Shown here in pieces: positions 29,501-55,555 of a stretch of 64,000 nt of DNA (its first letter is position 1; every line of letters starts with the position of its first letter). A model generated the notes under the pieces. It was not told the origin of the DNA and did no database searches. It was given only the letters and a program-made list of their open reading frames with translations. The DNA is taken from assembly GCA_002429485.1 (NCBI GenBank), contig DIZX01000011.1:55258-119257 (forward strand), given 5' to 3'. The translations under genes and the position numbers were made by a program. Source of the DNA: Patescibacteria group bacterium UBA6017. GTDB taxonomy: Bacteria; Patescibacteriota; Saccharimonadia; UBA4664.

Positions 29501-31201
29501 GTTGTAACCGCCCACTATATATATGTATCCGTTGTACGCAGCCATCCCGAACCTGTTGCGCGCGGTCGTAAAACTCGAAGCGGTGCACCAGTTGGTGGCT
29601 GTCCCCGACAGGGTGCAGCTGGTAGTCGGACGCTGAAGCGTCCCATCCGAGTTTATTTGAGTGTACTCGCACGTAGCAATGAGGCTAGCATCCTTCTTGA
29701 CGGTCGCCCCTCCGCACATATATATGAAGCCGTTGTAGGTCACTCCCCCGCCAAACGTATGATTCGTTCCGGTGTAGTATGTTGAGCTATTCGTCCAGGC
29801 CGTGGTCACATCACCCGTTGCCGAAACGGGCGCAAACTCAACGTTTTTATACTGCGTGTTACCCGTTGAATCCTCACCGTTCATCACATAAAGATAGCCG
29901 TTGAAGCCCACCACAGTAGACCCGATGCGCCCCTGAGCAAATGTCGCTGTAGTCGGGGTCCACGTCCCAAGCGTCCCATTGGAGTTCAAAGCTGCGTAGC
30001 AAACAAACCGGCCGGCACCATTTCCTCCCCCCACCAGATACAGGAAGCCATTGTAGGCTGTGAGGCCGAAGTTGAAGTTAACACCGCCCGTCTCACCGCA
30101 ACCAGGAGCCGCCCCACCCGTGGTAGGCAAGTTCCCAGCCACAGCGGTGCCCCAGCTCCCCAGCAATCCAGCAGTAATTTTCGCCCGGTTCAGCTGGGCG
30201 TCTGTCCCGGCTGTAATCGTCACCGTAATGTTGTCCTCAACCTTGCCCAGCAAAAAATCCGATTGGGTTGTGATGATAAACGAGGGGTCAATGGAGAGCG
30301 GGTAAGAGGCTTTGGCTAGGCCTGTCGCCACCACACTCAAAGTATCGCCGCTCAACGCGAAATGCGCCTTCACTCCGTGCGCTTTTCCGTCCGCCTGCTT
30401 CACCACCGGTGCCGGAATCTCAAACATCAAAAAGTTCTTCTCGGCGTTCTTGCGGGCATTCTCTACCCGGGCCCGGTCAGCGTCGGTACTGAAGCTGATA
30501 TTGCCAAGCAACGCCGGATCCACAGAGTAGACCCCTACCGCCCCGTTGGCAGTCATCCGCGCTTCCAGGCCATCCTCCAGGTTCAGCGCGTAATCATACT
30601 GCACCCTGTCCGCCGGGGCATGGTCTAGCAGGATGTCTTCCTTGATACCGTTACCCTTGGGCGTCAATGCCAGCACGCCCGCGTCAGCCTTTAGCGGATA
30701 TACCACCCTACCTTTAACCTTCCGGCCCTCGTCCAAGCCAAATTTCGGACTCATGGTAGCCGATATTTTATGCGTGGTATCGGTAACCCGAATGCCAGAG
30801 CTCGCCTGGACCGGCATCTTAGCTGAATATAATTGCTTGCCTTCGCCCACCCCGACACGCGAGACCCGGTCATCACCCCCCAACGGCTGACCATCCCGGT
30901 TGAAGTACACCGCCTTGTCCTTCTGGTCGTAAGTCAGCATATCTCCGAGCCGCGAACTCACATGGCTCATCACTCCGGCCTGATCAGCATTCAACCGGTA
31001 ACGCGCCTCGCTTGCCAGGTGTTCCAGCGTCGGTACGACCACGCCAGCCAGTAGCACACCGATCGTCACCGCGTGCAGGGGCTTGCGCACATCCACCAGC
31101 CGCAGCTTCCGCTCAACCCAAAGCGGCCACCGGCGGATTTTTCGCCGAGTAGCCAAGAGTAAATGCGTAACCAAACCGGCCAGCTTGCGCCTAGGTATCA
31201 C
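26600..31201 (-). CDS. giant membrane-anchored Kelch-repeat / beta-propeller protein (1533 aa)
   Basis: N-terminal transmembrane segment. About 20 Kelch-like repeats (YNGFLYLVGG, YNGYIYIVGG, GHLYIVGG, YNGNLYVVGG, SKLYVIGGYDGTN, GRVYAAGGINGAT ...). Confidence 0.75.
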   Translation of the reverse strand: MIPRRKLAGLVTHLLLATRRKIRRWPLWVERKLRLVDVRKPLHAVTIGVLLAGVVVPTLEHLASEARYRLNADQAGVMSHVSSRLGDMLTYDQKDKAVYFNRDGQPLGGDDRVSRVGVGEGKQLYSAKMPVQASSGIRVTDTTHKISATMSPKFGLDEGRKVKGRVVYPLKADAGVLALTPKGNGIKEDILLDHAPADRVQYDYALNLEDGLEARMTANGAVGVYSVDPALLGNISFSTDADRARVENARKNAEKNFLMFEIPAPVVKQADGKAHGVKAHFALSGDTLSVVATGLAKASYPLSIDPSFIITTQSDFLLGKVEDNITVTITAGTDAQLNRAKITAGLLGSWGTAVAGNLPTTGGAAPGCGETGGVNFNFGLTAYNGFLYLVGGGNGAGRFVCYAALNSNGTLGTWTPTTATFAQGRIGSTVVGFNGYLYVMNGEDSTGNTQYKNVEFAPVSATGDVTTAWTNSSTYYTGTNHTFGGGVTYNGFIYMCGGATVKKDASLIATCEYTQINSDGTLQRPTTSCTLSGTATNWCTASSFTTARNRFGMAAYNGYIYIVGGYNGTSALTDVQYVSIAPDYTLGTWGTTTAITAVLAAGWRNGGVVAEQGHLYIVGGCTTAPACSGLLNSTYYAVINADGTIGAWDTSTSFTTARLFNGVASYNGVIYSIAGCTAEPTNANNCTTALGDSQYAIINTTPGDTTSPTANNGGSVTAARAGVATTAYNGYLYAAGGCNGTNCGTYVATVDAAKINDDGSLGAWTTTGMGTLPASTGMNAGRTFGTMVGYGGKLYYIGGLQKTTAPADNYANTLLVATQTASNGNLSWSADNTASHAFISGRAYLASAVWGNYIYLMGGYDGTNYYNDVQYTKISGGSLADPNSCGVSSTLWCGSGTYSFGSTGKRGLGAAAYAGYLYIAGGRNGTTSYTDVYRAPLTSTTGAVGSVTTETNTLPSGPHTFIGVVIHNNVIYSIGGMTDNAGNAPSNVISCAALDGSTGAVGVWTTCSKTLSAARWGAGVAAYDGRLYTVGGCSGTGVPPCATGSYLATSEYFVVRNGGSGLFGTTAANTNPWTSTSGCTGACTLTARADAQTVAYNGNLYVVGGCTTYSAGVCTVWSTKVEHAAISASGSLGSFSSGSDTQLSSGQARISGAAITYVGRIFLIGGSSSTAADTADVISAPLSATGDVGTWRTETSMPEARHGFGATLMNGRVYAAGGINGATLKNSVMFSEIGENGLLLSWTTDGSTFSTARQDQSVLAYNSKLYVIGGYDGTNNLSDVQFAPINTDGSLGTWKYTNEQDQKGRFRQAAAANGYMYFFGSESSGLDVFYAAINSNGTIGNLYRASNSGMIAGSNHAHGGGVFSDGFFYEVGGCTLSGSACTTANNGAEYAGQKAQARIGHYSKMFNTEVNTAPSLVQVNGSGQYVITMRTAAVGTTTWGVPQFISPAYATKFYFLKALDGTGTDVGIAFNYYLFLIIDDSNTGGFPDTVSVAQDVDIYYHPNPTRRLRHGASFTNTGCNRVVTDGCLLDTAQ

Positions 31202-31836: not shown

Positions 31837-34800
31837 TTACTTGCCCTTCATCGTGAATGTTATCTGGCTGGCGTAGGCGTAGGCATTGTTCTTGGAAGAC
31901 ATATCCACCCTGAAGGTCACAATGTCGTTGGGGGCAAAGGTACATGTGGTGGCTTCGTTTCCATTGTAGGCAACCGTCTGCCAGGTGTTGTTGGAGGTGG
32001 TGACCGTAGTTGTACCGGCAGGGTTGCCGCCGCACTCTGTGCCATCGTTCTGGAAGACAGCGTACGCAATGCTCGCGTCCGTCGTGGATGACACCCGGCC
32101 CACCATCTGGATGGTACTGTCACTCGCAAAGCCTCCGAACGTCGGCGGCAGCTGGTACTTCACAAAGATGCTGTAGGTTTGAGCCGTCACCTGGGAAGTA
32201 GTCCAGCGGTAGAAGTTGTATTCCTCAGTAGAGGCACAGATCGTGCCTTCTGTCGCTTGGATACTCATGCGACTCGAACCGGAGCAGATGTTGGCGGTCA
32301 CTGTACCAATGTGCGTGTCGGCGCCCAAGCCCGGGTTCAAAACGGCGCCGGCGTATTCTGGCTCCAAGATCAGGTTGCTATCTGGCGCCGCACCACATGA
32401 GCCCCAGCCGTCGATTTCATAGCATTGAATGCGGCCGAGCGTGGTGTCGTAGTACATCGAGCCGTACAGATCTTGGTTGACGGTGCCCGTAAAAGGCACG
32501 GCCGCAAAGGTGTCGAGCGTGAGTAGCGTTAGGCCCTGGCTCAGCGGCCCGCCCACCCGCAACGAGCCTGTGTTCTTGGTGCCGGTGGTGTTTTGCGCCA
32601 CCACCGCCAGGTTGTCGATGTAGATGTGGGCGATGGTCGATGCGTCAGTCTTACTAATTCGTAGGAAGTTGCCCGTGGTCTGACCCGACGCGCTAGTAGT
32701 GAAGTAACAGGTGTATTTGAAGAAGCCGGTGGAATTGACCGTGCCGTTGGTCGGCACGTTGCAGGTGGCGTCGAGGGTGGGAGTGGCATCTTTGTAGTAC
32801 TGCACCGCGATCGTCGGCGTCCCCGACGAAGACTTAATGTTGAAGCTCACGGCGTAGAGCCGGCTGCTAGTCAGGGCCGTAGCGCTAAGTGCGTTGTTGG
32901 CGCCCCCGGTACCCGTCCCGGTTATGGCTACATCAACCGAACCGATTCCCGAAGCTAGGTTAGCGGCAGTGACGTTCTGCGTTATGGAGGCGCTACCCGT
33001 ACCGGTGAAAGCCGTCCACCCCGTCACTCCGCCTACCTCCACGCCTCCGTTTGAAGCCAGGTTGAAACCGGTCGCAGTATTGGTGGTGTCGATGGAAATC
33101 ACCGGAGCGGCGGCGCTGTTACCCACTTGGAATACGTTAGCGTTGTCATCGCCCACACCCGCCTGGAACAGTATGTTCTTTGTGGTCGAGGTCGTAATGA
33201 TCGAGGCCGGCGCTGTCGAAGTGTTGTTATACACCTGCTGTAGTGAGCTGGCCGTGGTGGTGCCACTCCAGGCGGTGCCGTTCCAGACCAGCGTAGCGGT
33301 GTTGCCGGAGCTCATGTTCACGCCCGACATACCGGTGGCCGCCAGCGTAAATGCCACCGAGCTGGAACCCGCCGACACGTATACCACCCGACCGGCAATA
33401 GCATTAGTCGGCGAGGGCATGGTGATAGTAGCTCCGGTGAAAGCACCGGCCACGTTCATGACGACCGTGCCGTAGGTGTTGAGGTTGGTCAGCAATGCCG
33501 GATCAGTGCCCGAGTTAAATGCTTGATTATTGCCCGTCTGGGTAAACGTCTCGCTGACCGAGGTAAATACCGGGGAACCGATCTTCACCACACCAGGGAT
33601 ACCGTTGGTTCCGGTCTTAGCTCCGGCAGTCAAAGTGATGTTACCGCCGTCATTGTCATTACTCCCCGCCGCACTCCCCGCCTGCAGCGTGATATTGCCA
33701 CCGGGCCCGACGCCGTTGGCTGCCGACGAACCGCCGTTGGCCGCCGAGATCACCACGAAACCGCCTGCCCCGGTCGCCGAAGCCGCCCCGCCCGCCAGGG
33801 TCGTCATCCCGCCTGTACCCGTACCGGTAGAGGCGCCGCCCTGCACGGTCACGGCGCCGCCGGCTGTATTGCCCCCGCCGGCTGCCCCACCCTTGAGTGA
33901 TGCAGCGCCACCAACGCCGCTGGTCCCGCCGGCGCCGCCCACCAAAATCAGATTTCCGCCCGTCCCTGAGGTATTTCCAGCCGCCGATCGCACCGTGAGT
34001 GCGGCTCCGGCCGTGGCCACAGTTGTCTGATCGGCCACCGCTATTATCCGGTCGGCGCTCATGCCCAGCTGCAGATCTATTCCGCTCTGCAATGCTGGGT
34101 TCTGGGCCGTCCCACCCACGTTTACTCCCAGGCCGTAGCTGCTCACCGAAAATATTGAATTGCCCAAAGTATCACTCGTGTGCGCATCACGCACTCCAAA
34201 GATCTCTTGTCCTGCCGACATCCCTGAAGCGATCGCCGACTGCACCGTAAGTGCCTTATTTGCCGCGGTCTCGAGTATACTCGGCGCCGCCCCAGACGAA
34301 TTGTTGTAAGCGCCCTGCAAATTTGTCGAAACCGCCCCGCCGTTGGTCCAGTTTGTACCGTCGTACACAAACATCTGCGAATTACCAACCACCAAAGTTT
34401 GACCCAAAATGGTTATCGCGTTCGTAGAGGCAGATAGGTTATTGATGTAGATGATAGAGCCTGCGCCAGCCGTCGGTGATGCTATCGCAGATATTGTGGT
34501 GGCACCAGTATCGGTAATTGTAAATGCCGTACAGTCATTCACTGTCTTACCGGCGGTAGTCAAAGTGATTGTGCCCGACACCCCCGTGTATGCACAAACC
34601 ACGTTCTGTGTCGCGCCATTATTTTTAAACAGCGTAGCGCTCGCCACCGTTCCCACGGTTGTGCTGCCATTTATGGTCGTAGTGTTGGCAGTCTTTCCAA
34701 TCGACACCGCGTTGGCCGTGCTCGTGCCCAAGTTGAGCTGCGAAGCGCTAATGGTGTCGAACAAGGGGGCCGTAAAACTCGTGTTGGCCCGTCCAGTTAG

Positions 34801-37800
34801 GGTAATGCGGAAGCTTCCCGTCTGATCTGCCGAGCTCTGGTTTTGAATGCCGTTATTGTCAGCCCCCGCAAAAGTCCAAGTTCCTACGCCGTTAACATTG
34901 GCCCACACCAACGTGGCCGAACTCCCGGCCGAGACGGTGGAGCCCAATATGCTAAAGCTCGTGGTACCCGTGTTCGTTATATATACGATGCGCCCGTACG
35001 TTCCACTGGCGGACGGCGTTGGCGGAGTGAGCGTTTGGCTGCCGGTCAGCTGGTGAGCTGCGATATAGGTATAAATATCAACCGTAGCTGCAGCACCGCC
35101 TGCATCCCATCCGCCGCCCGACAAGTCGGCCATTGTGTAGACGCTGTTCACCGTTGAGCCGTTGTTCACGAGCGCCCCGCTGCCGGCGGCGTTGCCGATA
35201 AGGGCGGTGCCGTTGGTCTTCACGGTCGTGGTCGACTTGCCGAGCGTCACACTGGTGGCCGTGCCGGTGCCGATGCTGATGCCGACCGCCGAGTCGATAT
35301 TGCCGGCCATCGTCAGGTTGCCACTGGCGTCCACTGCAAACCTGCTGGTCGGCGCGGCACCGGCCTGCAGGTCGAGCAGGTTGCCCGACGGCGCGGCGTT
35401 GGTGTCGCTGGCAAATATTAAAGCGTTGCCGGCTGCCGGGTTCAGGGTGCTGGTCACTTTGAGCGCGTTACCGGTGCCGCCATTAGTCAGCGTCAGCACA
35501 TTGGCCGAAGAGCCGGAGTTGGTGTTGGTGAAGTCGTAGAAATCGCCCGCCACTCCCCCGCTCGAGGTCTCGGTGGCTGTCTGGTTCTTGGCCAAAAAGC
35601 CACCGGTGCTCGGCAACGCAGTACACGAACCGCCCACCACGAGGCCGCCGGACGCCTGGAACAAGCTCACGTACTGGCCCGCGCCACAGGCACCGAAGCT
35701 GCTGCCGCTCGTGCCGCCAACTGAGAATCCGGAGGTAGCATTGGCCACGCCCGCGGATGTCACCTTGAACTCCGAGTTGTTATTATTCTGCAGGTTGAGT
35801 AAATCGGCCGTGGTGGCGCCTGAAGTGTTGAGGCCGATATAAGTACCGTTGACGCTACCGCTCGAAATGGCGGCGCCGCCAATCTGGACTAGTGAGCTTG
35901 CATTGCTCACGGCCGGCGCCCCGCTGACTATCAGCTCAGCCGCGCCCGTGCCTGTGACCGAGAGTACGCTGGTGACCCCCAGCGTACCTGTGACACTCGA
36001 ATTGCCGGTGATACCTGCGCCGCCAGCGCTCACCGTGAGCGCACCGGCCTCGGTCACCGTTCCGGTGAAGTTCGCCGCGCTCGAAATCCGCTGGCCGTTG
36101 AGCGTGTCGGTGGTGCTCGTGCCGCCCGACTGAGTCGCGTTCCCGTTCATGTCCACTGCAAACCGGCTGGCCAGCGTGGCCGACTGCGTACTTTGCAGAT
36201 CGAGTAAGTTGCCCGTGGCGTTGTTTAGAGTGTTGCTCGCAAAGATCGTGGCGTTACCGGCGTTCAAGTTGGCCGCCGAGGTCACCGACAAGGCCGAGTT
36301 CAGCCCGGAGCCGTTACTAATCGTCAGTACGCTCGTACTACCCGAACCGCCGTTATTGAGCGTCAGCAGCGAGTGGCCGCTCGTGGTCACCGTGACGTTA
36401 TCGGTCTCCTCCACGCCTTTGCGGATGTAGCCGGTGCTCGAATCGCAAGAGCCGACCGCGTCAGTACAGATCAAGTAACTACCGGTTGTCACTGATCGGT
36501 CGAGATTATACGTCACCGCTCCGGTTGGGCTACCCGTAAAAGCCAAAGTAGTCGTAAAGCCGCCTCCGGTTGCGCTCAAAGAAGTTGAGGCATTACCTTG
36601 CAGTGTCAATTGCTGGCCAGTCGCCCCGATGGTGAGCGTGCCAGTGGGCGTAATCGTATTCGTCTGCAGCGTACCAACCACATTCAGCTGCCCGCTCACC
36701 GTCGCCTGTGAGTTGAGCGTATCCACCGCAAATTGGGTCACTCCGGCGGCATTTTGCACGCTCAACGCCGTCGTGGAGTTCTCGGTGTTTTGCAGCATGA
36801 TCGGCGAGCTCACTGCCGTATCAACCTGCAGCGTACCCGCGCCGTAAGCATTCGCAACGTTGCTCGTCTGCTCCAGCTGCACGCCGTCCAGGTAGAATGT
36901 GCGGGCTGCCCCGGCAGTCTGACGGATCACGATATAGGCGCTGGCGTTTCCGGCCGTGGCCGAGGAGGTGAACGTACACGTCACCCGCGTCCAGCCGCCA
37001 CTCACCACCGTCTGCGTATTGTAACTACTACAAGCCGTTTCTGTACCAGCCGTGCCGTCGCGCGAATAGGCCGCCGCAACGTCGGCAAATGCCGGGTCGC
37101 CGGTCTTAAGTTTGGCGTAGAAGCTCACCGTGTACGCCGTGCTCGCGCTCAGCGCCGCGCCCAAATTGTTCTGCGCGCCCCGGGTCGCCGTCGATGGCGC
37201 CACCACCACGCTCACCGACGCCGCCCCATTCCAAGCATTGCTGGTATTGCGCGCCACCGTCGTGTTGGTGCCATAGGCAGCCCACTCACTGCCAAATGCT
37301 ACTTCTGCGCCCGGGTTCAGGATTAGATTGGTGTCGTTCGTGCCCACCCCGAGCACCGCCGCACCCTGCCCGTTTTGAATCTGCAGAGCGGTCGCCGTAT
37401 TGCCCGCCGAGCTGGTACCGGTCCGAATAGCATCGCCGGTATTGCTCAATGTCTCGCTCAACGCTCCTGCCTTCGAAGTCACCGTGCTGCCCGAATTCGT
37501 CGATCCGGCCGTTATCGATTGGGCGTTCGTGGCATCAGTGCCAACCGCAATCGTGTGCGCCGCCGCGTTCGTACCAATGTTGATCGCGGTACCGCCCTGG
37601 TTGCCCAGGTTCAGATTGGCCGTAGCATATACCCCGAGATCACCCGCGCTCGTCCCCCACAATGAAGCCGCGGCCGCTGTTAGCGTCAGGGCCCCGGCCG
37701 AAGTCGTAAACGACGATGCCGCGTTTGCGCTCAGGCTCACTGCCCCGCCCGATTGCGTCACCGCACCACCCGCTACCGTCAACGACTTGCCGCTAAGTAT

Positions 37801-39726
37801 CGTTGTGCTTTGGTTCAAATTAATGCCAGCCGTGGCATTAGTAGTCCCAATCGCTAGCGTAGTAGTGCCGCTCGGCGTATCGAGCAGCGGCGTCAGCAGC
37901 GATGTATTGGCCCGGCCACTACCGCTGATCTGGAAATTGGCCGTTTGGTTAGCTCCGGTCTGATTCAAAATATAGCCAACCCCGGTAGTTCCGTCGCAGT
38001 TGCCCGAATCCAGACACAGGGTACCTCCGGCATTCGGGAAAATAATGCTGCGCGCCGCCGTCGGAGTGGCCACGGTAATGGTCGTCAGGTTCGTGTTCGT
38101 AGCGTCGTTAAATACCATGTTGCTCGAAGCCGCCAGCCCCTGGATCGACACCGACGTACCCGATGCCGTGGCCGCATTGCGCCCAATGTTCACACTTGGC
38201 GCGTTAGTGTTGCCCAGGTAAACATTACCTGCAAAGCCGCCGGCACTCTTAGCACCGGAATCGATCGTAACGTTACCGGTACTGGTACTTGTCCCGGTCC
38301 CGTCGCCCGACTTTATCGTCACAGTCCCGGTACTTAAGCCCGAGCCGCCCGAAGTATTGCCGGACCGCACCAGCAAAGCCGCCGACGCGCCGACACCATC
38401 AACCGTGCTCACCAGCGGCGCGATCAGTGACGTGGCGGCCGTCACCGTCCCCGTAAAACTGGCGGCACTGGTGATCGTTTGGCCATTTATCGTTCCGCTC
38501 GCCACGGCACCAGCCTGATTGACGCTGAACTTACTGCTCGCGTTCACTTGCAGATCGAGCAAATTGCCAGTGATACCGGTCGCTCCGTTCGCCAAAATCA
38601 GCGCCTGCCCAGCCGCCGGGTTGCCGCTGCCCACTACCGTCAAACCCGAGCCGGTGTTGTTGCCATTATCGAGCTTGAGTACCCCGCTGGCCACAGCCGA
38701 GCTGCTGTTCGTAAATCCATACAGGAAGTTCGTGGCCGTCACGGCGAAGCTCGAGGTATCAGTGGCGTTTTTGGCCAAGTACCCCGTTGCGCTCGCCACC
38801 TGATAAGTCGCCGAGCAGGTGCTGGCCGTGGTAGTACACAGCGTGCCGCCCGCATCCGGGAAAATTATTGAACGAGGGGCAGTCGGCGCAGCAAAACTCA
38901 CGGTGGTCGTATTGGCGCCGCTGGTAGCCGTAAACGTGCTGCTGGAGTTGCCCTGTACCAAAAATGGCGTTGTCGTGCGACCAATGTTCACGCTCGATGC
39001 TATCCCGGTCCCCACATTGAGCGCCACCGCCGTAGCCGTATCCACTAACGGCGCCTGCAAGCCTGTGGCGGCAGCCACCGTGGCGCCCGAAGTCACGTTG
39101 CCGTTAACGTTCAGGAACCCGCTCTGCGCCGAACCGGGCGAAAGCTGAGCAAAGTCCGTCGCGTGCAAGCCCTGCAGCGCGTCCGAGTTCAGCGCGTAGG
39201 GCGAAGCCGTAAACCTCACAAACGGCAGCATTTCGCCGTCACCCGAGCAGCTCGTAAACGGCGTGCAGGTAGCATTCGTGTTGCCCAAGTTGATGCTCAT
39301 CCAGATGGTGTTGTTGTTGAAAATCGCCGGCAGGCTGGTGATTGAACCCAAGTTGACCTGGAAAATGCCGTCCGTCACGGTCACTCCCTGCGAGCTGTTG
39401 CGCAGCCAATCCTCAGTCCACTGCAAGGTACCGCCGCAAGGCGACGACCCGCCGCCCACACACCCGGCACCAGCGGTGTAAAGCTTGAATTCCAGGTTGT
39501 AGGTCCCATTAGGGATGTTGGTGCCGTTCGCATTTGCCAGCTTGCCCTGGAAATTTATGGCCGAGTTTATGGTAGCTTGAGCCCCCGGCGCCGGCCACGC
39601 CACCGCCGCCATACTCACCAATACGCCAAAAACACCAATCGCCGCAAAGGCCTTGGTTACCATGTGCCGGCTGAAAACACCGGTTACCCTACCTATGCGC
39701 CTTTGGAGACGTCGGGGGATCTTCAC
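31837..39726 (-). CDS. giant secreted surface protein B (2629 aa) with carbohydrate-binding-like jelly-roll modules
   Basis: GTG start. Signal peptide. The N-terminal domain is homologous to giant A. Several CBM-like modules end in ...TFYLDGVQLEQ and ...HIYIDNLAVVAQ. Gly/Thr/Ala/Ser-rich fibrous regions. Confidence 0.75.
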   Translation of the reverse strand: MKIPRRLQRRIGRVTGVFSRHMVTKAFAAIGVFGVLVSMAAVAWPAPGAQATINSAINFQGKLANANGTNIPNGTYNLEFKLYTAGAGCVGGGSSPCGGTLQWTEDWLRNSSQGVTVTDGIFQVNLGSITSLPAIFNNNTIWMSINLGNTNATCTPFTSCSGDGEMLPFVRFTASPYALNSDALQGLHATDFAQLSPGSAQSGFLNVNGNVTSGATVAAATGLQAPLVDTATAVALNVGTGIASSVNIGRTTTPFLVQGNSSSTFTATSGANTTTVSFAAPTAPRSIIFPDAGGTLCTTTASTCSATYQVASATGYLAKNATDTSSFAVTATNFLYGFTNSSSAVASGVLKLDNGNNTGSGLTVVGSGNPAAGQALILANGATGITGNLLDLQVNASSKFSVNQAGAVASGTINGQTITSAASFTGTVTAATSLIAPLVSTVDGVGASAALLVRSGNTSGGSGLSTGTVTIKSGDGTGTSTSTGNVTIDSGAKSAGGFAGNVYLGNTNAPSVNIGRNAATASGTSVSIQGLAASSNMVFNDATNTNLTTITVATPTAARSIIFPNAGGTLCLDSGNCDGTTGVGYILNQTGANQTANFQISGSGRANTSLLTPLLDTPSGTTTLAIGTTNATAGINLNQSTTILSGKSLTVAGGAVTQSGGAVSLSANAASSFTTSAGALTLTAAAASLWGTSAGDLGVYATANLNLGNQGGTAINIGTNAAAHTIAVGTDATNAQSITAGSTNSGSTVTSKAGALSETLSNTGDAIRTGTSSAGNTATALQIQNGQGAAVLGVGTNDTNLILNPGAEVAFGSEWAAYGTNTTVARNTSNAWNGAASVSVVVAPSTATRGAQNNLGAALSASTAYTVSFYAKLKTGDPAFADVAAAYSRDGTAGTETACSSYNTQTVVSGGWTRVTCTFTSSATAGNASAYIVIRQTAGAARTFYLDGVQLEQTSNVANAYGAGTLQVDTAVSSPIMLQNTENSTTALSVQNAAGVTQFAVDTLNSQATVSGQLNVVGTLQTNTITPTGTLTIGATGQQLTLQGNASTSLSATGGGFTTTLAFTGSPTGAVTYNLDRSVTTGSYLICTDAVGSCDSSTGYIRKGVEETDNVTVTTSGHSLLTLNNGGSGSTSVLTISNGSGLNSALSVTSAANLNAGNATIFASNTLNNATGNLLDLQSTQSATLASRFAVDMNGNATQSGGTSTTDTLNGQRISSAANFTGTVTEAGALTVSAGGAGITGNSSVTGTLGVTSVLSVTGTGAAELIVSGAPAVSNASSLVQIGGAAISSGSVNGTYIGLNTSGATTADLLNLQNNNNSEFKVTSAGVANATSGFSVGGTSGSSFGACGAGQYVSLFQASGGLVVGGSCTALPSTGGFLAKNQTATETSSGGVAGDFYDFTNTNSGSSANVLTLTNGGTGNALKVTSTLNPAAGNALIFASDTNAAPSGNLLDLQAGAAPTSRFAVDASGNLTMAGNIDSAVGISIGTGTATSVTLGKSTTTVKTNGTALIGNAAGSGALVNNGSTVNSVYTMADLSGGGWDAGGAAATVDIYTYIAAHQLTGSQTLTPPTPSASGTYGRIVYITNTGTTSFSILGSTVSAGSSATLVWANVNGVGTWTFAGADNNGIQNQSSADQTGSFRITLTGRANTSFTAPLFDTISASQLNLGTSTANAVSIGKTANTTTINGSTTVGTVASATLFKNNGATQNVVCAYTGVSGTITLTTAGKTVNDCTAFTITDTGATTISAIASPTAGAGSIIYINNLSASTNAITILGQTLVVGNSQMFVYDGTNWTNGGAVSTNLQGAYNNSSGAAPSILETAANKALTVQSAIASGMSAGQEIFGVRDAHTSDTLGNSIFSVSSYGLGVNVGGTAQNPALQSGIDLQLGMSADRIIAVADQTTVATAGAALTVRSAAGNTSGTGGNLILVGGAGGTSGVGGAASLKGGAAGGGNTAGGAVTVQGGASTGTGTGGMTTLAGGAASATGAGGFVVISAANGGSSAANGVGPGGNITLQAGSAAGSNDNDGGNITLTAGAKTGTNGIPGVVKIGSPVFTSVSETFTQTGNNQAFNSGTDPALLTNLNTYGTVVMNVAGAFTGATITMPSPTNAIAGRVVYVSAGSSSVAFTLAATGMSGVNMSSGNTATLVWNGTAWSGTTTASSLQQVYNNTSTAPASIITTSTTKNILFQAGVGDDNANVFQVGNSAAAPVISIDTTNTATGFNLASNGGVEVGGVTGWTAFTGTGSASITQNVTAANLASGIGSVDVAITGTGTGGANNALSATALTSSRLYAVSFNIKSSSGTPTIAVQYYKDATPTLDATCNVPTNGTVNSTGFFKYTCYFTTSASGQTTGNFLRISKTDASTIAHIYIDNLAVVAQNTTGTKNTGSLRVGGPLSQGLTLLTLDTFAAVPFTGTVNQDLYGSMYYDTTLGRIQCYEIDGWGSCGAAPDSNLILEPEYAGAVLNPGLGADTHIGTVTANICSGSSRMSIQATEGTICASTEEYNFYRWTTSQVTAQTYSIFVKYQLPPTFGGFASDSTIQMVGRVSSTTDASIAYAVFQNDGTECGGNPAGTTTVTTSNNTWQTVAYNGNEATTCTFAPNDIVTFRVDMSSKNNAYAYASQITFTMKGK

Positions 39727-50141: not shown

Positions 50142-50258
50142 TGTTACAAAGCCCCTTTCGTGCCTGGTTGTAGCAGGCGTGCTTGTGTTATATGTTCTAG
50201 CGTAACTCGAGCGATAATACCAGATTTCACCCTTGATGTACAGGGGTCCACAGCCTCG

Positions 50259-50906: not shown

Positions 50907-52022
50907 CTAACCCTCAAACTGCAATTTCTTCCGCCGCGTTGCCACGCTCTCCAGCAACCCCAGCCCACCCATCGCTACAATCAGCGCCGTACCGCCGTAG
51001 CTCACCAGCGGCAGCGGAATACCGGTGACGGGCGCTATGCCCATATTCATCCCGGCATTGATGAAGACGTGGAACAAAAACATCGCCGACACCCCCACCG
51101 CCACAAACATCCCGAACCTGTCCTGTGCAACGTAGGCTATCCGCACGCCGCGATACAGCAAAATCGCGAATAGCACCAACAGCAGCATGCCTCCAATAAA
51201 GCCCATTTTTTCGTTCAGCACCGAGAAAATAAAGTCCGTATGCTGAGCCAGCGACGGCAAAAAGTTGAGCTGACTCTGTGAGCCGGCCGCCAGTCCCCTG
51301 CCAAATACCTGCCCGGAGCCAATCGTGATCGTGGATTGGATCACATTATGGCCCGCCCCCAACGGATCTACCTGAGGGTTCAAAAATACCGTTAGCCGGT
51401 CCCGTTGATAGGATTTCAGGTGCTGCAGCACAAACGGCATCAATGCCAGCCCCACCCCCGACAGCGCCAACAGATACAGCTTACGCACCGGCGCCACCAT
51501 TGCCATCGCCAGCCAAATCGCCACCAACACCAATGCGGTCCCCAAATCTGGCTGTCTCATAACCAGTGCCACCGGGATTACCAGATACAGTAGCGACAAA
51601 CCCAAATATTTAGCGCGATGAACCTTGTCGTAATTACTTGAAAAAAATTTCGCCAAACCGATAATCAGTACCAGCTTCGCAAATTCCGACGGTTGAAACT
51701 GGAAAAACCCCAAGTCAATCCACCGCTGAGCGCCCAGCACCGCCCTTGAAGTCAACAGCACAATAATCAGAAACAACAGCGTAAGGCCGTAAAGCCAGGG
51801 TGTCAGCTTAAACCAGGTACGGTAATCAACCCGGGCCATAAACACAAAAGCACCCAGCCCGACCGCCACAAACACCAACTGATGCCACAAATCGGTCAGA
51901 CTGCCCAGGCGGGTAGCCTTAAATGAGGTCGAATATATCACCAGCAGCCCCATGGCCACCAGCAGCATCATCACCCCGAACAATATCCAGTCAAAATTTT
52001 TCCAAAACCGCGTTTTTAACAC
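50907..52022 (-). CDS. SEDS-family peptidoglycan glycosyltransferase (FtsW/RodA-like)
   Basis: About ten transmembrane segments; the SEDS-conserved region includes ...GTALVLVAIW...GGTALIV. Confidence 0.75.
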   Translation of the reverse strand: MLKTRFWKNFDWILFGVMMLLVAMGLLVIYSTSFKATRLGSLTDLWHQLVFVAVGLGAFVFMARVDYRTWFKLTPWLYGLTLLFLIIVLLTSRAVLGAQRWIDLGFFQFQPSEFAKLVLIIGLAKFFSSNYDKVHRAKYLGLSLLYLVIPVALVMRQPDLGTALVLVAIWLAMAMVAPVRKLYLLALSGVGLALMPFVLQHLKSYQRDRLTVFLNPQVDPLGAGHNVIQSTITIGSGQVFGRGLAAGSQSQLNFLPSLAQHTDFIFSVLNEKMGFIGGMLLLVLFAILLYRGVRIAYVAQDRFGMFVAVGVSAMFLFHVFINAGMNMGIAPVTGIPLPLVSYGGTALIVAMGGLGLLESVATRRKKLQFEG

Positions 52023-52105
52023 TAAGCCGGGTAACCACCATTACTGAAACCAGTCTAGCTTAATACGCCTCTATTTTAAAATCACCGCAGAGGGGCGTTA
52101 GCGTA

Positions 52106-52134
52106 TTGATATATGCTTGTTATAGTGGTATAAT
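52106..52134 (+). promoter_or_regulatory. consensus sigma70 promoter (TTGATA, 17 nt spacer, TATAAT)
   Basis: TTGATA at 52106-52111, a 17-nt spacer, then TATAAT at 52129-52134. It drives the small ORF below. Confidence 0.55.
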
Positions 52135-52189
52135 AAACAACAACGGCCGAACCCGACCGCTACCGTTTCACCCGATCATGGGAGAAAAA

Positions 52190-52351
52190 ATGTTCAGCCT
52201 CATCAAGGATCTCGCCACCGCCCGCACCGTGCTGCGCGATGAGCGCAACAGGCACCTCGCCCGGGTCGAGAAGGCCAAGAAGGTCCCGACCGAGATCACC
52301 TTCCCGGGCGGCCTCCCGTTCTTGAACGACGAGGTCAACCCTCCAAACTGA
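52190..52351 (+). CDS. small basic protein (53 aa) with strong expression signals
   Basis: GGAG ribosome binding site 6 nt before ATG 52190. Sequence MFSLIKDLATARTVLRDERNRHLARVEKAKKVPTEITFPGGLPFLNDEVNPPN. No family recognised. Confidence 0.4.
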   Translation: MFSLIKDLATARTVLRDERNRHLARVEKAKKVPTEITFPGGLPFLNDEVNPPN

Positions 52352-52359
52352 TCGGCCTT

Positions 52360-52397
52360 GCGGCCCCTCGTCCTCCATCCAGGAGACGAGGGGCCGC
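52360..52397 (+). terminator. strong GC-rich hairpin terminator
   Basis: 13-bp perfect stem gcggcccctcgtc / gacgaggggccgc around a 12-nt loop, followed by a T-rich tract tctccatttct. Confidence 0.55.
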
Positions 52398-52415
52398 TCT
52401 CCATTTCTGCCCTAT

Positions 52416-55292
52416 TTATGCCTTCGAGATACCGATATACAGCTCATCCCCGGATACCTTCACGGGCACTTGATCTCCCGCGCCAGCCGTCTTAACCTCA
52501 ACAGCCAACGTCTCGGCTTTGATCACCTCCGCATGCGCCTCAACCGCCCCGGCTAATTCGGCGGACTCGGTCATGAGAGTCAAAACTATCCGATCATCCA
52601 CCTCTAATCCTGCCGCTTTACGCGCAGTCTGGACGTGTCGTACAACATCGCGCATCAAACCTTCGGCTTTTAGCTCAGGGGTGATGTTTACATCGAGCTT
52701 TAACCCTTCTCCGCGCACGATTTCGCGTACATTCACTTCCTGCGCAATAATTTCGTTGATCTCCGGTCGGAAATCAACCGGCACTTCCAGCGTCTGCAAC
52801 GGCTGCCGAACCTTAACGCCCGCATCTGCCCTCAGAGATAAGCTATCGGTCACAATTACCCGCGCCGCCTGCATCTCGCCAATCAATAGACTCATATCAT
52901 TAGTAACCGTTGCCTCCGGCCAGTCGCTCAAGTGCACGCTGGATGGCTCGTCCATCCCCTCGGTCAGCTCGCGCCACAACTTATCAGCTACAAACGGACT
53001 CCACGGCGCCAGCAGTTGGGCGATTCTCACAAGCACATAGTGCAAGGTTACATAAGCGCTCGCCTTATCGCCATCGTCTTCGCTCTTCCAAAACCGCCTT
53101 CTGGAACGTCGCACATACCAGTTGGATAAATCGTCAATCAACGCGCGCAGCGGTCGCAGCGCCTGTGCCAACTCATACTTGTCCGCCGCTTCACTGACTT
53201 CCACGATAGTTTGATCCAGCCGCGCCAGCATCCATTGGTCGAGCGCACTAGTGACCTCGGGCCGGGCCAGCTTCTTGGGCGGCTCCCAGCCGTCGATCTC
53301 GGCGTACATGCTCAGGAACGAATAGGTGTTCCACAGCGTCCCGAAGACATTGCGCTGGATATCCCGCATGGCGTCTCTATTAAACCGCATATAATCGGCA
53401 CCTACCGCCTGATCGTTGCCCAGGAGGTAAAACCGCAGCGTATCAGCGCCTTCGGTGCCAAACACTTCTTCCACCGGCGGGTAATTCTTGAGCCGCTTGC
53501 TCAACTTTTGCCCGTCAGCCGCCATTACCATGCCGTTCACCAGCACATTCTTATACGCCGGCCGGCCAAATACAATCGTCGACAGCACGTGCTGCACGTA
53601 GAACCACAGTCTTGTCTGGTCCAGGCCCTCACCAATATAGTCAGCCGGGAACGACTGCTCAAAAACCTCTTTGTTCTCAAACGGATAGTGATGCTGTGCC
53701 GCCGGCATCGAACCGCTCTCAAACCAGCAGTCGAAGACCTCGTCGATTCGGCGATAAGTCTTGCCGTCTTTCTCGATCACAATTTTATCAATCCCCGGCC
53801 GGTGCAAATCTTCCGGCGCCTTCTCCAATCCCGCCAGTTTCACCAGCTCATCCAGGCTCGAGATCACCAAATAATCGGTCTCATCGACTTCATTAACCCA
53901 AATCGGCATTGGCGCGCCCCAGTATCTGTTACGGCTGATCGCCCAGTCGCGCGCGCCTGCCAACCATTTGCCGAAGCGGCCGCTCTTGATGTGGCCCGGC
54001 TGCCAATTGATCTGCTCGGCCGTGGCCAGCATTTCTTCGCGAATCTCCGACACCTTCACGAACCAGGTGGAAATTGCGTAATACAGTAGCGGACTGTCGC
54101 ACCGATAGCAAAACGGATAGGTGTGCGTAAACGTCTCAGCCGCGTACACTTTGCCCGCTTCTACCAGGTGCTGGGTGATAATCTTATCCGCCCCCTTAAA
54201 GAACTTCCCGCGCGCCCCTTCAATCGGCACATTATCGGTCAGACGCCCGTCAGGCTTCACCGTCATCAGCACCGGTATGTCGTGCTCAACTGATAGATTG
54301 AGGTCGTCTTCACCAAACGCCGGCGCCACATGCAGCACCCCGGTACCGTCATCTATCGATACCGCCTCTGTGGCCCACACCTGGAACAAATTATCGCCCT
54401 CAGCACCACTTGCCAGCTCAATAATGGGCTCATAGTGCTTCCCCACCAATTCCTCGGCTGCCACTTCCTCTACCACCTCATATTCGGCCTTCAGAGCCTC
54501 CAGACGCGCCTTCGCCAGCACCAGCGTTTCCGCCTTGCCATCATCATCCTTTACCTTCACATAGACATACTTCGCTCCCGGCTTCACCGCCAGCGCGGCA
54601 TTACCCGGCAAGCTCCATGGCGTCGTCGTCCACCCCAGTAAACTCGCATCTTCATCAACCAACTTAAACTTCACAAACAGGCTCGGATCCGGCACATCGT
54701 CCTTGTAGCCTTCATTTACCTCAAAATTGCTCAATGGCGTCTCGCAGCGTGGGCAGTACGGCATACTCTTAAATCCGCGCTGCAGCAGACCCTTCTCGTT
54801 CACCTGCCCCAGCATCCACCACACGCTCTCGGTGTAGTCACGGTCAATCGTGGCGTAGGCATTATGCGTATCTGTCCATCGTCCAGCCCGGCGGAAAAAA
54901 TCTTCCCACTCGCCCTTATACTTGAACACACTTGCCCGACAGGCATCATTGAATTTTTCCAACCCAAGCTCCAGAATCTGCTTTTTCCCGCTCACTCCAA
55001 ATTCTTTCTCGATCGCAAATTCCACCGGCAACCCGTGGCAATCCCAGCCGTTGCGCCGCTGGACGTATTCACCCTTCATCGTGTGATACCGACCCAGCGA
55101 GTCCTTAATGCTCGTCACCAAGGTATGCCCGAAATGCGGCAAGCCATTGGCAAACGGTGGACCGTCATAAAAACTAAATCGCTTAGCATCTTTACGATTC
55201 TCTAGGCTCTTTTCGAACGTCTTCTCGGCTGTCCAGACCTTGAGCATCTCAGCTTCAATAGCAGGAAAATCAGCAACTTGAGCTTTTTTCAC
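52416..55292 (-). CDS. ileS: isoleucyl-tRNA synthetase, eukaryote-like type 2
   Basis: FYDGPPFANGLPHFGH (HIGH region, type-2 form) and KLSKRLKNYP (KMSKS). GTG start with a GGAG ribosome binding site. Confidence 0.9.
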   Translation of the reverse strand: MKKAQVADFPAIEAEMLKVWTAEKTFEKSLENRKDAKRFSFYDGPPFANGLPHFGHTLVTSIKDSLGRYHTMKGEYVQRRNGWDCHGLPVEFAIEKEFGVSGKKQILELGLEKFNDACRASVFKYKGEWEDFFRRAGRWTDTHNAYATIDRDYTESVWWMLGQVNEKGLLQRGFKSMPYCPRCETPLSNFEVNEGYKDDVPDPSLFVKFKLVDEDASLLGWTTTPWSLPGNAALAVKPGAKYVYVKVKDDDGKAETLVLAKARLEALKAEYEVVEEVAAEELVGKHYEPIIELASGAEGDNLFQVWATEAVSIDDGTGVLHVAPAFGEDDLNLSVEHDIPVLMTVKPDGRLTDNVPIEGARGKFFKGADKIITQHLVEAGKVYAAETFTHTYPFCYRCDSPLLYYAISTWFVKVSEIREEMLATAEQINWQPGHIKSGRFGKWLAGARDWAISRNRYWGAPMPIWVNEVDETDYLVISSLDELVKLAGLEKAPEDLHRPGIDKIVIEKDGKTYRRIDEVFDCWFESGSMPAAQHHYPFENKEVFEQSFPADYIGEGLDQTRLWFYVQHVLSTIVFGRPAYKNVLVNGMVMAADGQKLSKRLKNYPPVEEVFGTEGADTLRFYLLGNDQAVGADYMRFNRDAMRDIQRNVFGTLWNTYSFLSMYAEIDGWEPPKKLARPEVTSALDQWMLARLDQTIVEVSEAADKYELAQALRPLRALIDDLSNWYVRRSRRRFWKSEDDGDKASAYVTLHYVLVRIAQLLAPWSPFVADKLWRELTEGMDEPSSVHLSDWPEATVTNDMSLLIGEMQAARVIVTDSLSLRADAGVKVRQPLQTLEVPVDFRPEINEIIAQEVNVREIVRGEGLKLDVNITPELKAEGLMRDVVRHVQTARKAAGLEVDDRIVLTLMTESAELAGAVEAHAEVIKAETLAVEVKTAGAGDQVPVKVSGDELYIGISKA

Positions 55293-55520
55293 GGTTGTCT
55301 CCTAAAAATAAAAACCATCCGGACTTATGCAGGGACTCGCAAAGTCGCGAGCGGTACCACCCTGCTTTCCAGATGGACTCTTCATTATCAACTATTGTCG
55401 TGAGTTGCCAACGTCTCGGTCTAATAAGCTCAATATGAGCCTTTCTTCGAGCAGCTTCGCGGTTGATAGCCGCTTATCCATTTACAGGAATGCCTACCAA
55501 TTTGTGAACCTACTATACCA
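55293..55520 (-). promoter_or_regulatory. T-box riboswitch leader of ileS
   Basis: On the coding strand, AGCAGGGTGGTACCGCTCGC (plus-strand coordinates 55347-55366) matches the T-box consensus AGGGTGGNACCGCG. It is followed by the terminator helix CCATCTGGAAAGCAGGG...CCCTGCATAAGTCCGGATGG and TTTTTATTTTT before the ribosome binding site. The 5' extent is approximate. Confidence 0.6.
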
Positions 55521-55555
55521 TAAGTTACGGCCAATACGCTTACTTCTCAATTTGC

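What the first reader, a model, noticed from the sequence alone, without database searches (positions are those of the whole stretch)
52106..52397. Compact expression cassette for a 53-aa protein: perfect -35 / -10, GGAG ribosome binding site, 13-bp GC hairpin terminator
The promoter is TTGATA-17-TATAAT. A GGAG ribosome binding site lies 6 nt before ATG 52190. A 13-bp perfect stem (52360-52397) is followed by a T-rich tract.

Together these frame a short ORF (MFSLIKDLATARTVLRDERNRHLARVEKAKKVPTEITFPGGLPFLNDEVNPPN). Such strong signals around a tiny gene convergent with ileS suggest an abundantly made small protein. It could be a regulator, a ribosome-associated factor or an antitoxin-like protein. 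Alternatively the transcript itself may act as an RNA.
Basis: seen in the sequence. Interest (0 to 1): 0.5.

Follow-up and report, generated by a model that had tools for sequence, protein, structure and literature searches.

The report
Orphan small gene between ileS and rodA
A real, strongly signalled gene for a 53-residue protein sits between two housekeeping genes of an uncultured Saccharimonadia bacterium, but only its promoter, leader and terminator are conserved in relatives, so it is a lineage-restricted orphan of unknown function.

Summary
Window 52106-52397 contains a near-consensus extended -10 promoter, GGGAG five bases before ATG 52190, a 53-codon ORF and a 13-16 bp GC hairpin 18 nt from the stop of convergent ileS. 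Only the "T-rich tract" is weak.

The genome is a Saccharimonadia (TM7/CPR) bacterium. Most Saccharibacteria have ileS and rodA adjacent (-7 to +34 nt). In the window's sub-clade an antisense unit occupies that junction.

Nine such units were recovered. All have a strong promoter, a Shine-Dalgarno site, a GC-rich ORF of 48-156 codons and a hairpin. Their ORFs are not recognisably related.

The only homologue of the 53-aa protein is a 48-aa ORF in the sister species. It is 28% identical, against 91-92% for the neighbouring genes.

GC by codon position (0.59/0.41/0.91) is a strong coding signature in both species. dN/dS is about 1 or higher. The 5' leader core is the best conserved part.

No protein family, RNA family, phage or defence match was found.

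Best reading: a translated, fast-evolving orphan small protein expressed from a conserved framework. Its function is unknown. An RNA- or cis-level role for the unit is a serious rival. Interest is modest.

The parts
52052..52080 (-). Putative rodA promoter (TTTAAA-17-TAGACT, 8/12), divergent from the small-gene promoter
   Evidence: Read from the sequence; it falls below the scan threshold. The block 52040-52069 is 97% identical to L005. This is inferred, not shown. It would be needed because the hairpin cuts rodA off from ileS transcription.
52106..52134 (+). Sigma70-type promoter TTGATA-17-TATAAT with a TG extended -10
   Evidence: The hexamers and spacing are kept in L005 while the spacer sequence varies. 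Promoters matching 9-11 of 12 positions sit in the same place in eight related cassettes.
52140..52189 (+). 5' leader of about 48 nt (the transcription start is inferred). It holds the conserved core AACGGCCGAACCCGACCG and an imperfect 6-4-6 palindrome/hairpin at 52144-52159. A weak hairpin at 52166-52187 pairs UUUC-CCC with the SD GGG-GAAA.
   Evidence: The leader is 87% identical to L005 and 52130-52159 is 97% identical, against 55% at 4-fold sites. The core is identical in L178, where rodA 4-fold identity is only 0.27. It is unique in the window. Folds are (z -0.35, so not significant alone).
52180..52184 (+). Shine-Dalgarno GGGAG, 5 nt before the ATG
   Evidence: All nine cassettes have an SD 5-8 nt from an ATG or GTG.
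52190..52351 (+). 53-codon ORF (MFSLIKDLATARTVLRDERNRHLARVEKAKKVPTEITFPGGLPFLNDEVNPPN)
   Evidence: GC1/2/3 is 0.59/0.41/0.91, against a host GC3 of 0.60 +/- 0.07. The L005 orthologue has 48 aa and is 28% identical. AlphaFold single-sequence prediction gives a helix at residues 3-30 and a disordered tail. The peptide is hydrophilic and basic.
52351..52357 (+). Conserved ATCGGCC box, complementary to the leader GGCCGA (52145-52150); predicted 5'-3' closing helix
   Evidence: It is an invariant island in the otherwise diverged 3' region. The helix appears in the centroid or MFE folds of both species and in the consensus fold. There is no covariation, so this is suggestive only.
52360..52397 (.). 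GC-rich hairpin (13 perfect bp, 16 in all), 18 nt from the ileS stop; probable bidirectional terminator for the small gene and ileS
   Evidence: Against L005 there are 5 compensatory changes, 2 one-sided changes and no broken pairs. Every related cassette has a hairpin of -28 to -54 kcal/mol in this position. It is stable on both strands. The U-tract is weak.

Best explanation
This is an autonomous, monocistronic gene for a lineage-restricted (orphan), fast-evolving small protein. It lies antisense in the junction between ileS and rodA of a Saccharimonadia bacterium.

Mechanism, step by step:
1. An extended -10 sigma70 promoter starts transcription near 52140-52142 (inferred from the sequence).
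2. The leader of about 48 nt carries a conserved palindrome/hairpin and an SD (shown to be conserved; its function is inferred).
3. Ribosomes translate 53 codons into a basic, hydrophilic peptide. The peptide has an N-terminal amphipathic helix and a proline-rich disordered tail (translation is inferred from the SD, the start codon and the codon-phase composition; the structure is predicted).
4. The GC hairpin ends this transcript and also the convergent ileS transcript (inferred).

The unit interrupts an ancestrally tight ileS-rodA operon. As a result rodA now needs its own promoter in 52023-52105 (comparative inference).

The unit belongs to a series of homologous antisense expression frameworks at this junction. 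Their coding content has turned over. The peptide sequence is barely constrained. If it has a function, the most likely one is a dispensable or adaptive one, such as binding a larger partner through the helix, rather than a core one.
For: Anatomy and statistics.

Coding signature:
- GC1/2/3 is 0.59/0.41/0.91 in the frame set by the SD and ATG.
- No shuffle of 50,000 reaches that phase contrast.
- It is the only small gap ORF in the window with this signature.
- The L005 orthologue has 0.53/0.29/0.82 in the corresponding frame.
- That contrast is not reached by simulated neutral decay from a window-like sequence (P <= 0.0002).

Orthologue: L005 keeps the promoter, leader, SD, ATG and hairpin. 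The residues that align are in frame along the whole ORF, and the internal indel in the DNA alignment is 6 nt.

All nine related cassettes keep a strong promoter, an SD 5-8 nt from a start codon and an ORF of 48-156 codons. This argues that translation itself is selected.

Gene callers in four sources called this ORF, and it is 100% identical in contigs from four samples.

Ancestral state: the ileS-rodA gap is -7 to +34 nt in distant Saccharibacteria.
Against: - dN/dS is about 1.5 (dN 0.71, dS 0.46).
- The 28% amino-acid identity is what neutral drift gives at the observed nucleotide identity. No purifying selection on the peptide is therefore detectable.
- The ORF (49-57% nt identity) is no better conserved than 4-fold sites (55%). 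The leader is at 87-97%.
- The leader persists in L178 with a completely different ORF.
- L168 and L097 have a promoter plus terminator with no credible ORF.
- Close relatives L165-167, L169, L172 and L174/175 lack the cassette altogether, so it is dispensable.
- An open frame of this length is not informative in GC-rich DNA: it stays open by chance in 13-47% of simulations.
- If the common ancestor had an even stronger phase contrast, part of the periodicity could be inherited rather than maintained.
- There is no expression or peptide evidence.
Confidence: 0.5

Rival explanations
1. The selected product is the transcription unit or its RNA, not the peptide. One option is a riboregulator or dual-function RNA whose conserved 5' leader is the active part. 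Another is a cis-acting module: a strong divergent promoter plus a bidirectional terminator that insulates ileS from rodA and conditions the rodA promoter. In either case the GC-rich body is a spacer, and its translation only stabilises the RNA.
For: - The leader core is identical in the window, L005 and L178, although synonymous sites are saturated (4-fold identity 0.55 and 0.27).
- The ORF evolves at or above the neutral rate.
- ORFs in the nine cassettes are unrelated.
- ORF-less units exist in L168 and L097.
- A conserved ATCGGCC box pairs with the leader in both species.
- The hairpin shows compensatory changes.
Against: - An SD and start codon are kept in all nine ORF-bearing cassettes.
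- The codon-phase GC signature is present in the window and L005.
- There is no Rfam match even at E <= 10 apart from chance hits on the hairpin.
- Without the terminator the window transcript is no more structured than shuffles (z -0.40).
- The leader hairpins are not significant (z -0.35).
- There is no second copy of the leader motif in the 64 kb and no identified target.
- Close relatives do without the unit.
Confidence: 0.25
2. It is a decaying relic. A gene acquired from a GC-rich donor, or a formerly longer gene in this slot, has been reduced to a short ORF. The ORF is still driven by a leftover promoter and has no present function.
For: - ORF GC (0.64) and GC3 (0.91) are far above the host (0.55; GC3 0.60 +/- 0.07).
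- Slot ORFs range from 156 codons down to 48, and to none in close relatives.
- dN/dS is about 1 or higher.
- The peptides are Arg/Pro-rich, basic and disordered, as expected from unselected GC-rich DNA.
Against: - No donor homologue was found among 5.8 billion or 1.84 billion proteins, or in phage or viral collections.
- The promoter, SD and leader are under clear purifying selection across saturated divergence, which a relic would not keep.
- The phase composition has not ameliorated to the host.
- An HMM built from the larger slot proteins (L046, L085, L087) does not recognise the window ORF.
Confidence: 0.15
3. It is a leader-peptide attenuator. Translation of the small ORF would control termination at the hairpin, and so control antisense read-through into the 3' end of ileS. 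This would give feedback on isoleucyl-tRNA synthetase.
For: - The geometry fits in the window: the stop codon is 8 nt before the hairpin, and ileS lies antisense just beyond it.
- A 12-nt segment of the ORF (52323-52334) is 83% complementary to the 5' arm of the hairpin, which is antiterminator-like.
- L005 has two Ile-Ile pairs.
Against: - The distance from stop to hairpin is not conserved; it ranges from about 8 to about 51 nt, counted from the tail sequences printed.
- The alternative pairing is weak against a -36 kcal/mol hairpin and is not found in L005.
- Ile is not enriched: 2 of 53 residues here and 2-7% in most cassettes, read from the sequences.
- No gene lies downstream on the same strand.
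Confidence: 0.05

Closest known systems
Species- or lineage-specific orphan genes of prokaryotes (SSOGs; Vakirlis & Kupczok 2024, PMC11293555, read)
   Same: It has no detectable homologue outside a very narrow clade. It is short, predicted to be largely disordered and patchily distributed. It sits in an otherwise syntenic region where close relatives have an empty site.
   Different: That survey reports that orphan GC content closely matches that of conserved genes, and that orphans show signs of purifying selection. Here GC3 is 0.91 against 0.60 for the host, and no purifying selection on the peptide is detectable. In addition, the expression framework is older and better conserved than the ORF it carries.
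Dual-function small RNAs such as SgrS/SgrT (Wadler & Vanderpool 2009, PMC2760806; reviews PMC12310071 and PMC12612679, listed)
   Same: It is a transcript of about 260 nt with its own promoter and terminator. It carries a small ORF plus a separately conserved non-coding segment. A 5' structure may limit translation.
   Different: No base-pairing target, Hfq dependence or regulatory input is known here. The conserved segment is the 5' leader of the ORF rather than a 3' seed region. No Rfam family matches.
Leader-peptide transcription attenuators (trp and ilv leaders; own knowledge)
   Same: A small ORF with a strong SD is followed closely by a stable GC hairpin.
   Different: No regulated gene lies downstream on the same strand. 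There is no run of regulatory codons and no conserved alternative antiterminator.
Bidirectional intrinsic terminators between convergent genes, and 5' stem-loop mRNA stabilisers (own knowledge)
   Same: One GC-rich hairpin lies between two convergent stop codons and is stable on both strands. A small hairpin lies near the 5' end of the transcript.
   Different: The U-tracts are weak on both strands, and neither activity has been measured.

Membership tests
Sigma70-type promoter with extended -10 | -35 and -10 hexamers close to consensus, a 16-18 nt spacer, and TG upstream of the -10 | tested here: met
   11 of 12 positions, 17-nt spacer, TG present. It is unique at one mismatch or fewer in 64 kb. 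It is conserved in L005 and in eight related cassettes.
Sigma70-type promoter with extended -10 | Mapped transcription start | not testable with these tools
   No transcript data are available.
Intrinsic (Rho-independent) terminator | Stable GC-rich stem-loop at the 3' end of the unit | tested here: met
   dG -36.4 kcal/mol, z -5.8. Compensatory changes are seen against L005. A hairpin is present in all nine cassettes.
Intrinsic (Rho-independent) terminator | U-rich tract directly after the stem | tested here: not met
   The tail is CUCUCCAUUUCU. The scan's rule (at least 5 T in 8 bases) did not call it.
Any described RNA family (Rfam 15) | Covariance-model score at or above the gathering threshold | tested here: not met
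   There are no hits in the whole window. At E <= 10 there are only chance hits on the hairpin. No tRNA or tmRNA was found.
Any described protein family or solved structure | Significant profile or sequence match | tested here: not met
   Pfam, NCBIfam, PHROGs, PADLOC and PDB gave nothing. The 5.8-billion and 1.84-billion protein searches returned only the protein itself plus three repeat-protein artefacts. Phage and viral collections gave nothing.
Toxin-antitoxin small proteins (type I toxin or type II antitoxin) | A hydrophobic membrane helix (type I), or an adjacent partner gene with a recognisable antitoxin fold (type II) | tested here: not met
   GRAVY is -0.49 and the maximum 15-residue hydropathy is 0.95. 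The neighbours are ileS and rodA only. There is no HMM match.
Leader-peptide attenuator | A regulated gene downstream on the same strand, a conserved alternative antiterminator, and regulatory codon runs | tested here: not met
   No gene lies downstream on the + strand. The I2 pairing is weak and is not found in L005. Ile is 2 of 53 residues. The stop-to-hairpin distance is variable.
Dual-function sRNA | A non-coding segment conserved independently of the ORF | tested here: met
   The leader is 87-97% identical while the ORF is 49-57% identical. The core is identical in L178, which has an unrelated ORF.
Dual-function sRNA | Demonstrated base-pairing target and a translated peptide | not testable with these tools
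   This needs expression and target data. No second copy or obvious complement was found in the window.
Lineage-restricted orphan small-protein gene | No homologue outside a narrow clade, with a syntenic empty site in close relatives | tested here: met
   The only homologue is the L005 ORF. The junction is empty in L165-167, L169, L172 and L174/175.
Lineage-restricted orphan small-protein gene | Coding signature in the proposed frame | tested here: met
   GC1/2/3 is 0.59/0.41/0.91, and 0.53/0.29/0.82 in L005. Shuffles and neutral simulations do not reach this contrast.
Lineage-restricted orphan small-protein gene | Purifying selection on the protein | tested here: not met
   dN 0.71 and dS 0.46. 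The amino-acid identity equals the neutral expectation.
Diversity-generating retroelement target | A template repeat copy of the variable region nearby | tested here: not met
   There is no second copy of any part of the cassette in the 64 kb.

The most novel reading that the evidence does not exclude
The ileS-rodA junction of this Saccharimonadia sub-clade carries a conserved antisense 'expression socket'. The socket consists of a near-consensus promoter, a conserved leader palindrome, an SD and a bidirectional hairpin. Its GC-rich coding body is free to turn over. This could be a natural nursery in which new small proteins are continuously made and tested in a genome-reduced episymbiont. Alternatively, it could be a unit in which translation of an arbitrary GC-rich spacer is itself the function. 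The window's 53-aa ORF would be one current occupant.
Probability: 0.2. Interest if true: 0.6.

Novelty: new member of a known kind. Interest (0 to 1): 0.35.

Why it matters
The finding matters in three ways.

1. Annotation. This small ORF is called by some pipelines and missed by others, and its L005 orthologue is absent from the protein collection. The analysis shows on what grounds it can be kept as a gene.

2. Evolution. A housekeeping operon junction in a reduced CPR genome has become a site where a conserved promoter-leader-terminator framework carries unrelated, GC-rich small ORFs in different lineages. This is a tractable case for asking how orphan genes arise and decay.

3. Regulation. 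The leader core AACGGCCnnACnCGACCG is conserved across saturated divergence and matches no known element.

If the peptide proves functional, it would add to the very few small proteins known from Saccharibacteria. If it does not, the unit is an example of selection on a transcription unit rather than on its product.

Tried and rejected
1. Exact-pattern scan of the metagenome collection with the leader core returned 0 hits.

2. A profile built from the window and L005 peptides, searched against 5.8 billion proteins, returned only the query itself.

3. Exhaustive phmmer gave three extra hits (P0003-P0005). All are long repeat proteins that score through summed weak repeats, so they were rejected as artefacts.

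4. Is the window ORF a truncated member of a larger slot-protein family?
- Pairwise local scores against L087 gave p = 0.006-0.01.
- L087 does link to L046 and L085.
- However, an HMM of that family does not find the window, L005, L052 or L170 ORFs among 2930 ORFs.
- The idea was rejected.

5. A structured non-coding RNA body was rejected. The window z-score without the terminator is -0.40, and there is no Rfam match.

6. A DGR or template repeat was rejected, because there is no second copy in the window.

7. Phage or viral origin was rejected, with no match for three slot proteins.

8. An upstream in-frame extension (81-aa ORF from TTG 52106; 57-aa JGI call from ATG 52178) was rejected.
- The extension lies in or over the promoter.
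- The spacer residues are not conserved.
- In L005 the extension is in a different frame.

9. The antisense ORFs at 52160-52378 and 52168-52404 are shadows of the high-GC3 frame and are not conserved in L005.

10. Strand bias of the hairpin is seen in L005 only (-33.4 against -28.5 kcal/mol) and not across the cassettes.

11. The isoleucine-sensing attenuator is dealt with under the rival explanations.

Full report
**1. What is in the sequence**

Window 52023-52415 is the 393-nt gap between two minus-strand genes. One is rodA (50907-52022, GTG start, FtsW/RodA/SpoVE family). The other is ileS (52416-55292).

On the plus strand the gap holds the following, all read:
- TTGATA (52106-52111), a 17-nt spacer with TG at 52126-52127, and TATAAT (52129-52134). 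This is 11 of 12 positions and the best promoter-like site in the region.
- GGGAG (52180-52184).
- ATG at 52190.
- A 53-codon ORF ending with TGA at 52349-52351.
- Perfect 13-nt inverted arms at 52360-52372 and 52385-52397.

The arms fold into a 16-bp hairpin of -36.4 kcal/mol (z -5.8), which ends 18 nt from the ileS stop.

The promoter is the only match with at most one mismatch to TTGACA-N17-TATAAT in 64 kb. Shuffles give a mean of 0.13 such sites.

The tract after the hairpin (CTCTCCATTTCT) is not a U-run, and the terminator scan did not call the site.

**2. Organism and ancestral state of the locus**

IleS finds only Saccharimonadia/Saccharibacteria (TM7, CPR) metagenome-assembled genomes. 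The best is L005 at 92% identity, followed by several at 76%.

58 loci have ileS followed by rodA on the same strand. In the distant ones the two genes abut or overlap (-7 to +34 nt). In the window's sub-clade the junction is opened to between 12 and 3346 nt.

The junction is thus ancestrally operon-like and has become variable in this lineage.

**3. Homologues of the ORF**

The 53-aa protein has no relative in any of these searches:
- 5.8 billion clustered proteins. Only the protein itself was found, called in NCBI, ENA, Logan and JGI data.
- An exhaustive HMMER scan of 1.84 billion representatives. It returned the protein itself plus three repeat-protein artefacts.
- Pfam, NCBIfam, PHROGs, PADLOC and PDB.
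- Phage and viral collections.

Contigs of the same species from four samples are 99.9-100% identical to the window, and the 394-nt gap region is 100% identical in all four.

The sister species L005 has the same cassette:
- the same promoter hexamers and spacing;
- a nearly identical leader;
- GGGGAG followed by ATG;
- a 48-codon ORF (MKIIKELFEVAKTLRKQIDKPIGFVWHEQHPKSPAKIINPERHPHWDF);
- a different 16-bp GC hairpin.

The two peptides align in frame along their whole length, but only 13 of 46 aligned positions are identical (local-score p = 0.014-0.02 against shuffles).

**4. Rates of change between the window and L005**

| Region | Measure |
|---|---|
| ileS | dN 0.046, dS 1.21 |
| rodA | dN 0.055, dS 1.12 |
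| ileS, rodA 4-fold sites | 55% identical |
| Small ORF | 49-57% nt identity, dN 0.71, dS 0.46 |
| Promoter | 79% identical |
| Leader | 87% identical |
| 52130-52159 | 97% identical |
| rodA-proximal part of the gap | 87% identical |
| Other intergenic regions of the same genome pair | 47-90% identical |

Simulated neutral drift gives 20-31% amino-acid identity at the observed nucleotide identity. That range includes the observed value.

The peptide sequence therefore shows no purifying selection, while the expression signals do.

**5. Is the ORF coding?**

An open frame of this length is uninformative in 64%-GC DNA. It stays open by chance in 13-47% of simulations.

The composition by codon position is informative:
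- The window ORF has GC1/2/3 = 0.59/0.41/0.91.
- Host genes have 0.60/0.39/0.66 (ileS), with a GC3 mean of 0.60, sd 0.07 and maximum 0.78 over 51 long ORFs.
- No shuffle of 50,000 gives such a phase contrast.
- It is the only small gap ORF in the window with this signature.
- The L005 ORF has 0.53/0.29/0.82 in the homologous frame.

Starting from a window-like sequence, neutral decay at d = 0.6-1.2 leaves a GC3-GC2 contrast of 0.10-0.23 (sd 0.09). The L005 contrast is 0.51 to 0.53, depending on whether the start codon is counted. The simulations were tested against 0.53, and P <= 0.0002.

If the ancestor had an even stronger contrast, part of the signal would be inherited. I therefore treat this as strong but not absolute evidence that the frame is maintained.

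The two long antisense ORFs (52160-52378 and 52168-52404) are the expected shadows of a high-GC3 frame. They have no counterpart in L005.

**6. A family of cassettes with unrelated contents**

RodA relatives were found. Looking them up gave more junctions.

Cassettes with antisense ORFs of 63-156 codons occur in L052, L087, L170/171, L176, L177, L178 and L179.

All nine cassettes, counting the window and L005, share these features:
- a promoter matching 9-11 of 12 positions;
- a leader of 33-88 nt;
- an SD 5-8 nt from an ATG or GTG;
- a GC-rich ORF (GC 0.55-0.69), with GC3 above that of the host's ileS;
- a hairpin of -28 to -54 kcal/mol just before the ileS stop.

The promoter regions align. 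The leader core AACGGCCnnACnCGACCG is identical in the window, L005 and L178. Yet rodA 4-fold sites are only 27% identical between the window and L178.

The ORFs are not recognisably related. Four of 36 pairs have p <= 0.02 and none is convincing. No family hits were found.

Other states of the junction:
- L168 and L097 have a promoter plus terminator with no credible ORF.
- L008, L009 and L089 carry uppS in the slot.
- L165-167, L169, L172 and L174/175 lack the unit. L165 and L169 are, after L005, closer to the window by IleS than the cassette-bearing L170.

The framework is therefore older and better conserved than what it carries, and it is dispensable.

**7. RNA-level features**

The hairpin differs from that of L005 by five compensatory and two one-sided changes, with no broken pair.

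Across the cassettes it is about equally stable on both strands. This fits a shared bidirectional terminator.

The leader contains two elements:
- an imperfect 6-4-6 palindrome (CGGCCG-AACC-CGACCG, 52144-52159);
- a weak hairpin pairing UUUC-CCC with the SD.

Neither is significant against shuffles.

A conserved ATCGGCC box directly after the stop codon (52351-52357) is complementary to the leader GGCCGA. It closes the transcript in the predicted folds of both species. There is no covariation to prove this.

Without the terminator the window transcript is not more structured than shuffles (z -0.40). L005 is at -2.56.

No Rfam family matches.

**8. The peptide**

Single-sequence AlphaFold2 predicts one helix (residues 3-30, pLDDT 73-87) and a disordered, proline-rich tail.

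The peptide is hydrophilic (GRAVY -0.49) and basic (9 K+R against 7 D+E). It has no cysteine and no membrane segment.

The residues shared with L005 fall into two groups:
- I5, K6, L8, L15 and R16 in the first half of the helix, and V26 and E27 near its end;
- a K-x-P-x-x-I-x-x-P stretch.

**9. Interpretation**

The best-supported reading is a real, translated, lineage-restricted small-protein gene expressed from a conserved framework (confidence about 0.5). The peptide is fast-evolving and probably non-essential.

What is shown:
- the anatomy;
- its conservation;
- the coding-phase signature;
- the absence of homologues;
- the ancestral tight junction.

What is inferred:
- transcription and translation themselves;
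- termination in both directions;
- a separate rodA promoter at about 52052-52080.

The main rival (about 0.25) is that the unit or its RNA is what selection sees. The leader outlives the ORFs, and ORF-less units exist.

A decaying relic (about 0.15) explains the foreign GC3 and dN/dS of about 1. It does not explain the conserved promoter, SD and leader.

An attenuator controlling antisense read-through into ileS (about 0.05) fails on conservation of geometry and on codon content.

**10. Comparison with what is known, and novelty**

The closest described kind is the prokaryotic orphan gene (PMC11293555). This case differs in three ways:
- its GC3 is far above the host's;
- it lacks detectable purifying selection;
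- it sits in a framework older than itself.

It resembles dual-function sRNAs (PMC2760806) in having an independently conserved non-coding segment. No target or family membership can be shown.

I rate it a new member of a known kind, with modest interest (0.35).

The more novel reading is a conserved expression socket with turnover of its coding content. It is not excluded (probability about 0.2).

Noticed in passing
window 55293-55555: The 263-nt region upstream of ileS is 85% identical to L005, with blocks at 100%, while 4-fold sites are 55% identical. No Rfam family matches, T-box included. It may be an unrecognised ileS leader.
   Followed up: partly
window 50142-50258: The region upstream of rplU (ribosomal protein L21) is 90% identical to L005 and has no Rfam hit. 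It may be a ribosomal-protein leader.
   Followed up: no
L168:1-275 and L097:4191-4372: At the same ileS-rodA junction these relatives carry an antisense promoter plus intrinsic terminator enclosing only about 60-120 nt, with no credible ORF. In L168 the promoter and the start of the transcript are homologous to the window's.
   Followed up: partly
L046:6156-7314, L085:1870-3904, L087:4245-4775: Antisense slot ORFs of 111-177 aa in these loci form a small family that has no Pfam match for the L087 member. L046 has two paralogues at 38% identity, and the links to L085 and L087 have E = 0.002-0.004 in a small database. This family is unrelated to the window ORF by HMM.
   Followed up: partly
L008, L009, L089 (ileS-rodA gap): In these relatives uppS (undecaprenyl-diphosphate synthase-like, 228-232 aa) occupies the same antisense slot.
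   Followed up: no
L005:5223-5730 and L005:10426-11082: The sister species has about 500 nt extra, with a 96-aa ORF, between yggT and the ileS leader. It also has about 650 nt extra between rodA and the HAD hydrolase gene; at that position the relative L165 has a called NUDIX gene. Both insertions are absent from the window, so small gene-sized indels are frequent in this clade.
   Followed up: no
window 52135-52174: The two substitutions between the window and L005 in the leader core are both C-to-T. Both fall in unpaired positions of the predicted hairpin. Both would also be synonymous in the frame of the upstream extension. With only two changes this is not significant.
   Followed up: partly
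window 10935-17279, 26600-31201, 31837-39726: Three giant minus-strand ORFs (2114, 1533 and 2629 aa) have GC2 above GC1. This composition is unusual compared with the other genes of the window.
   Followed up: no
L170:5166-5780 and L176:4245-5039: Transposase genes (Y1_Tnp; DDE_Tnp_IS1595) lie next to rplU, a few kb from the junction, in two cassette-bearing relatives.
   Followed up: no
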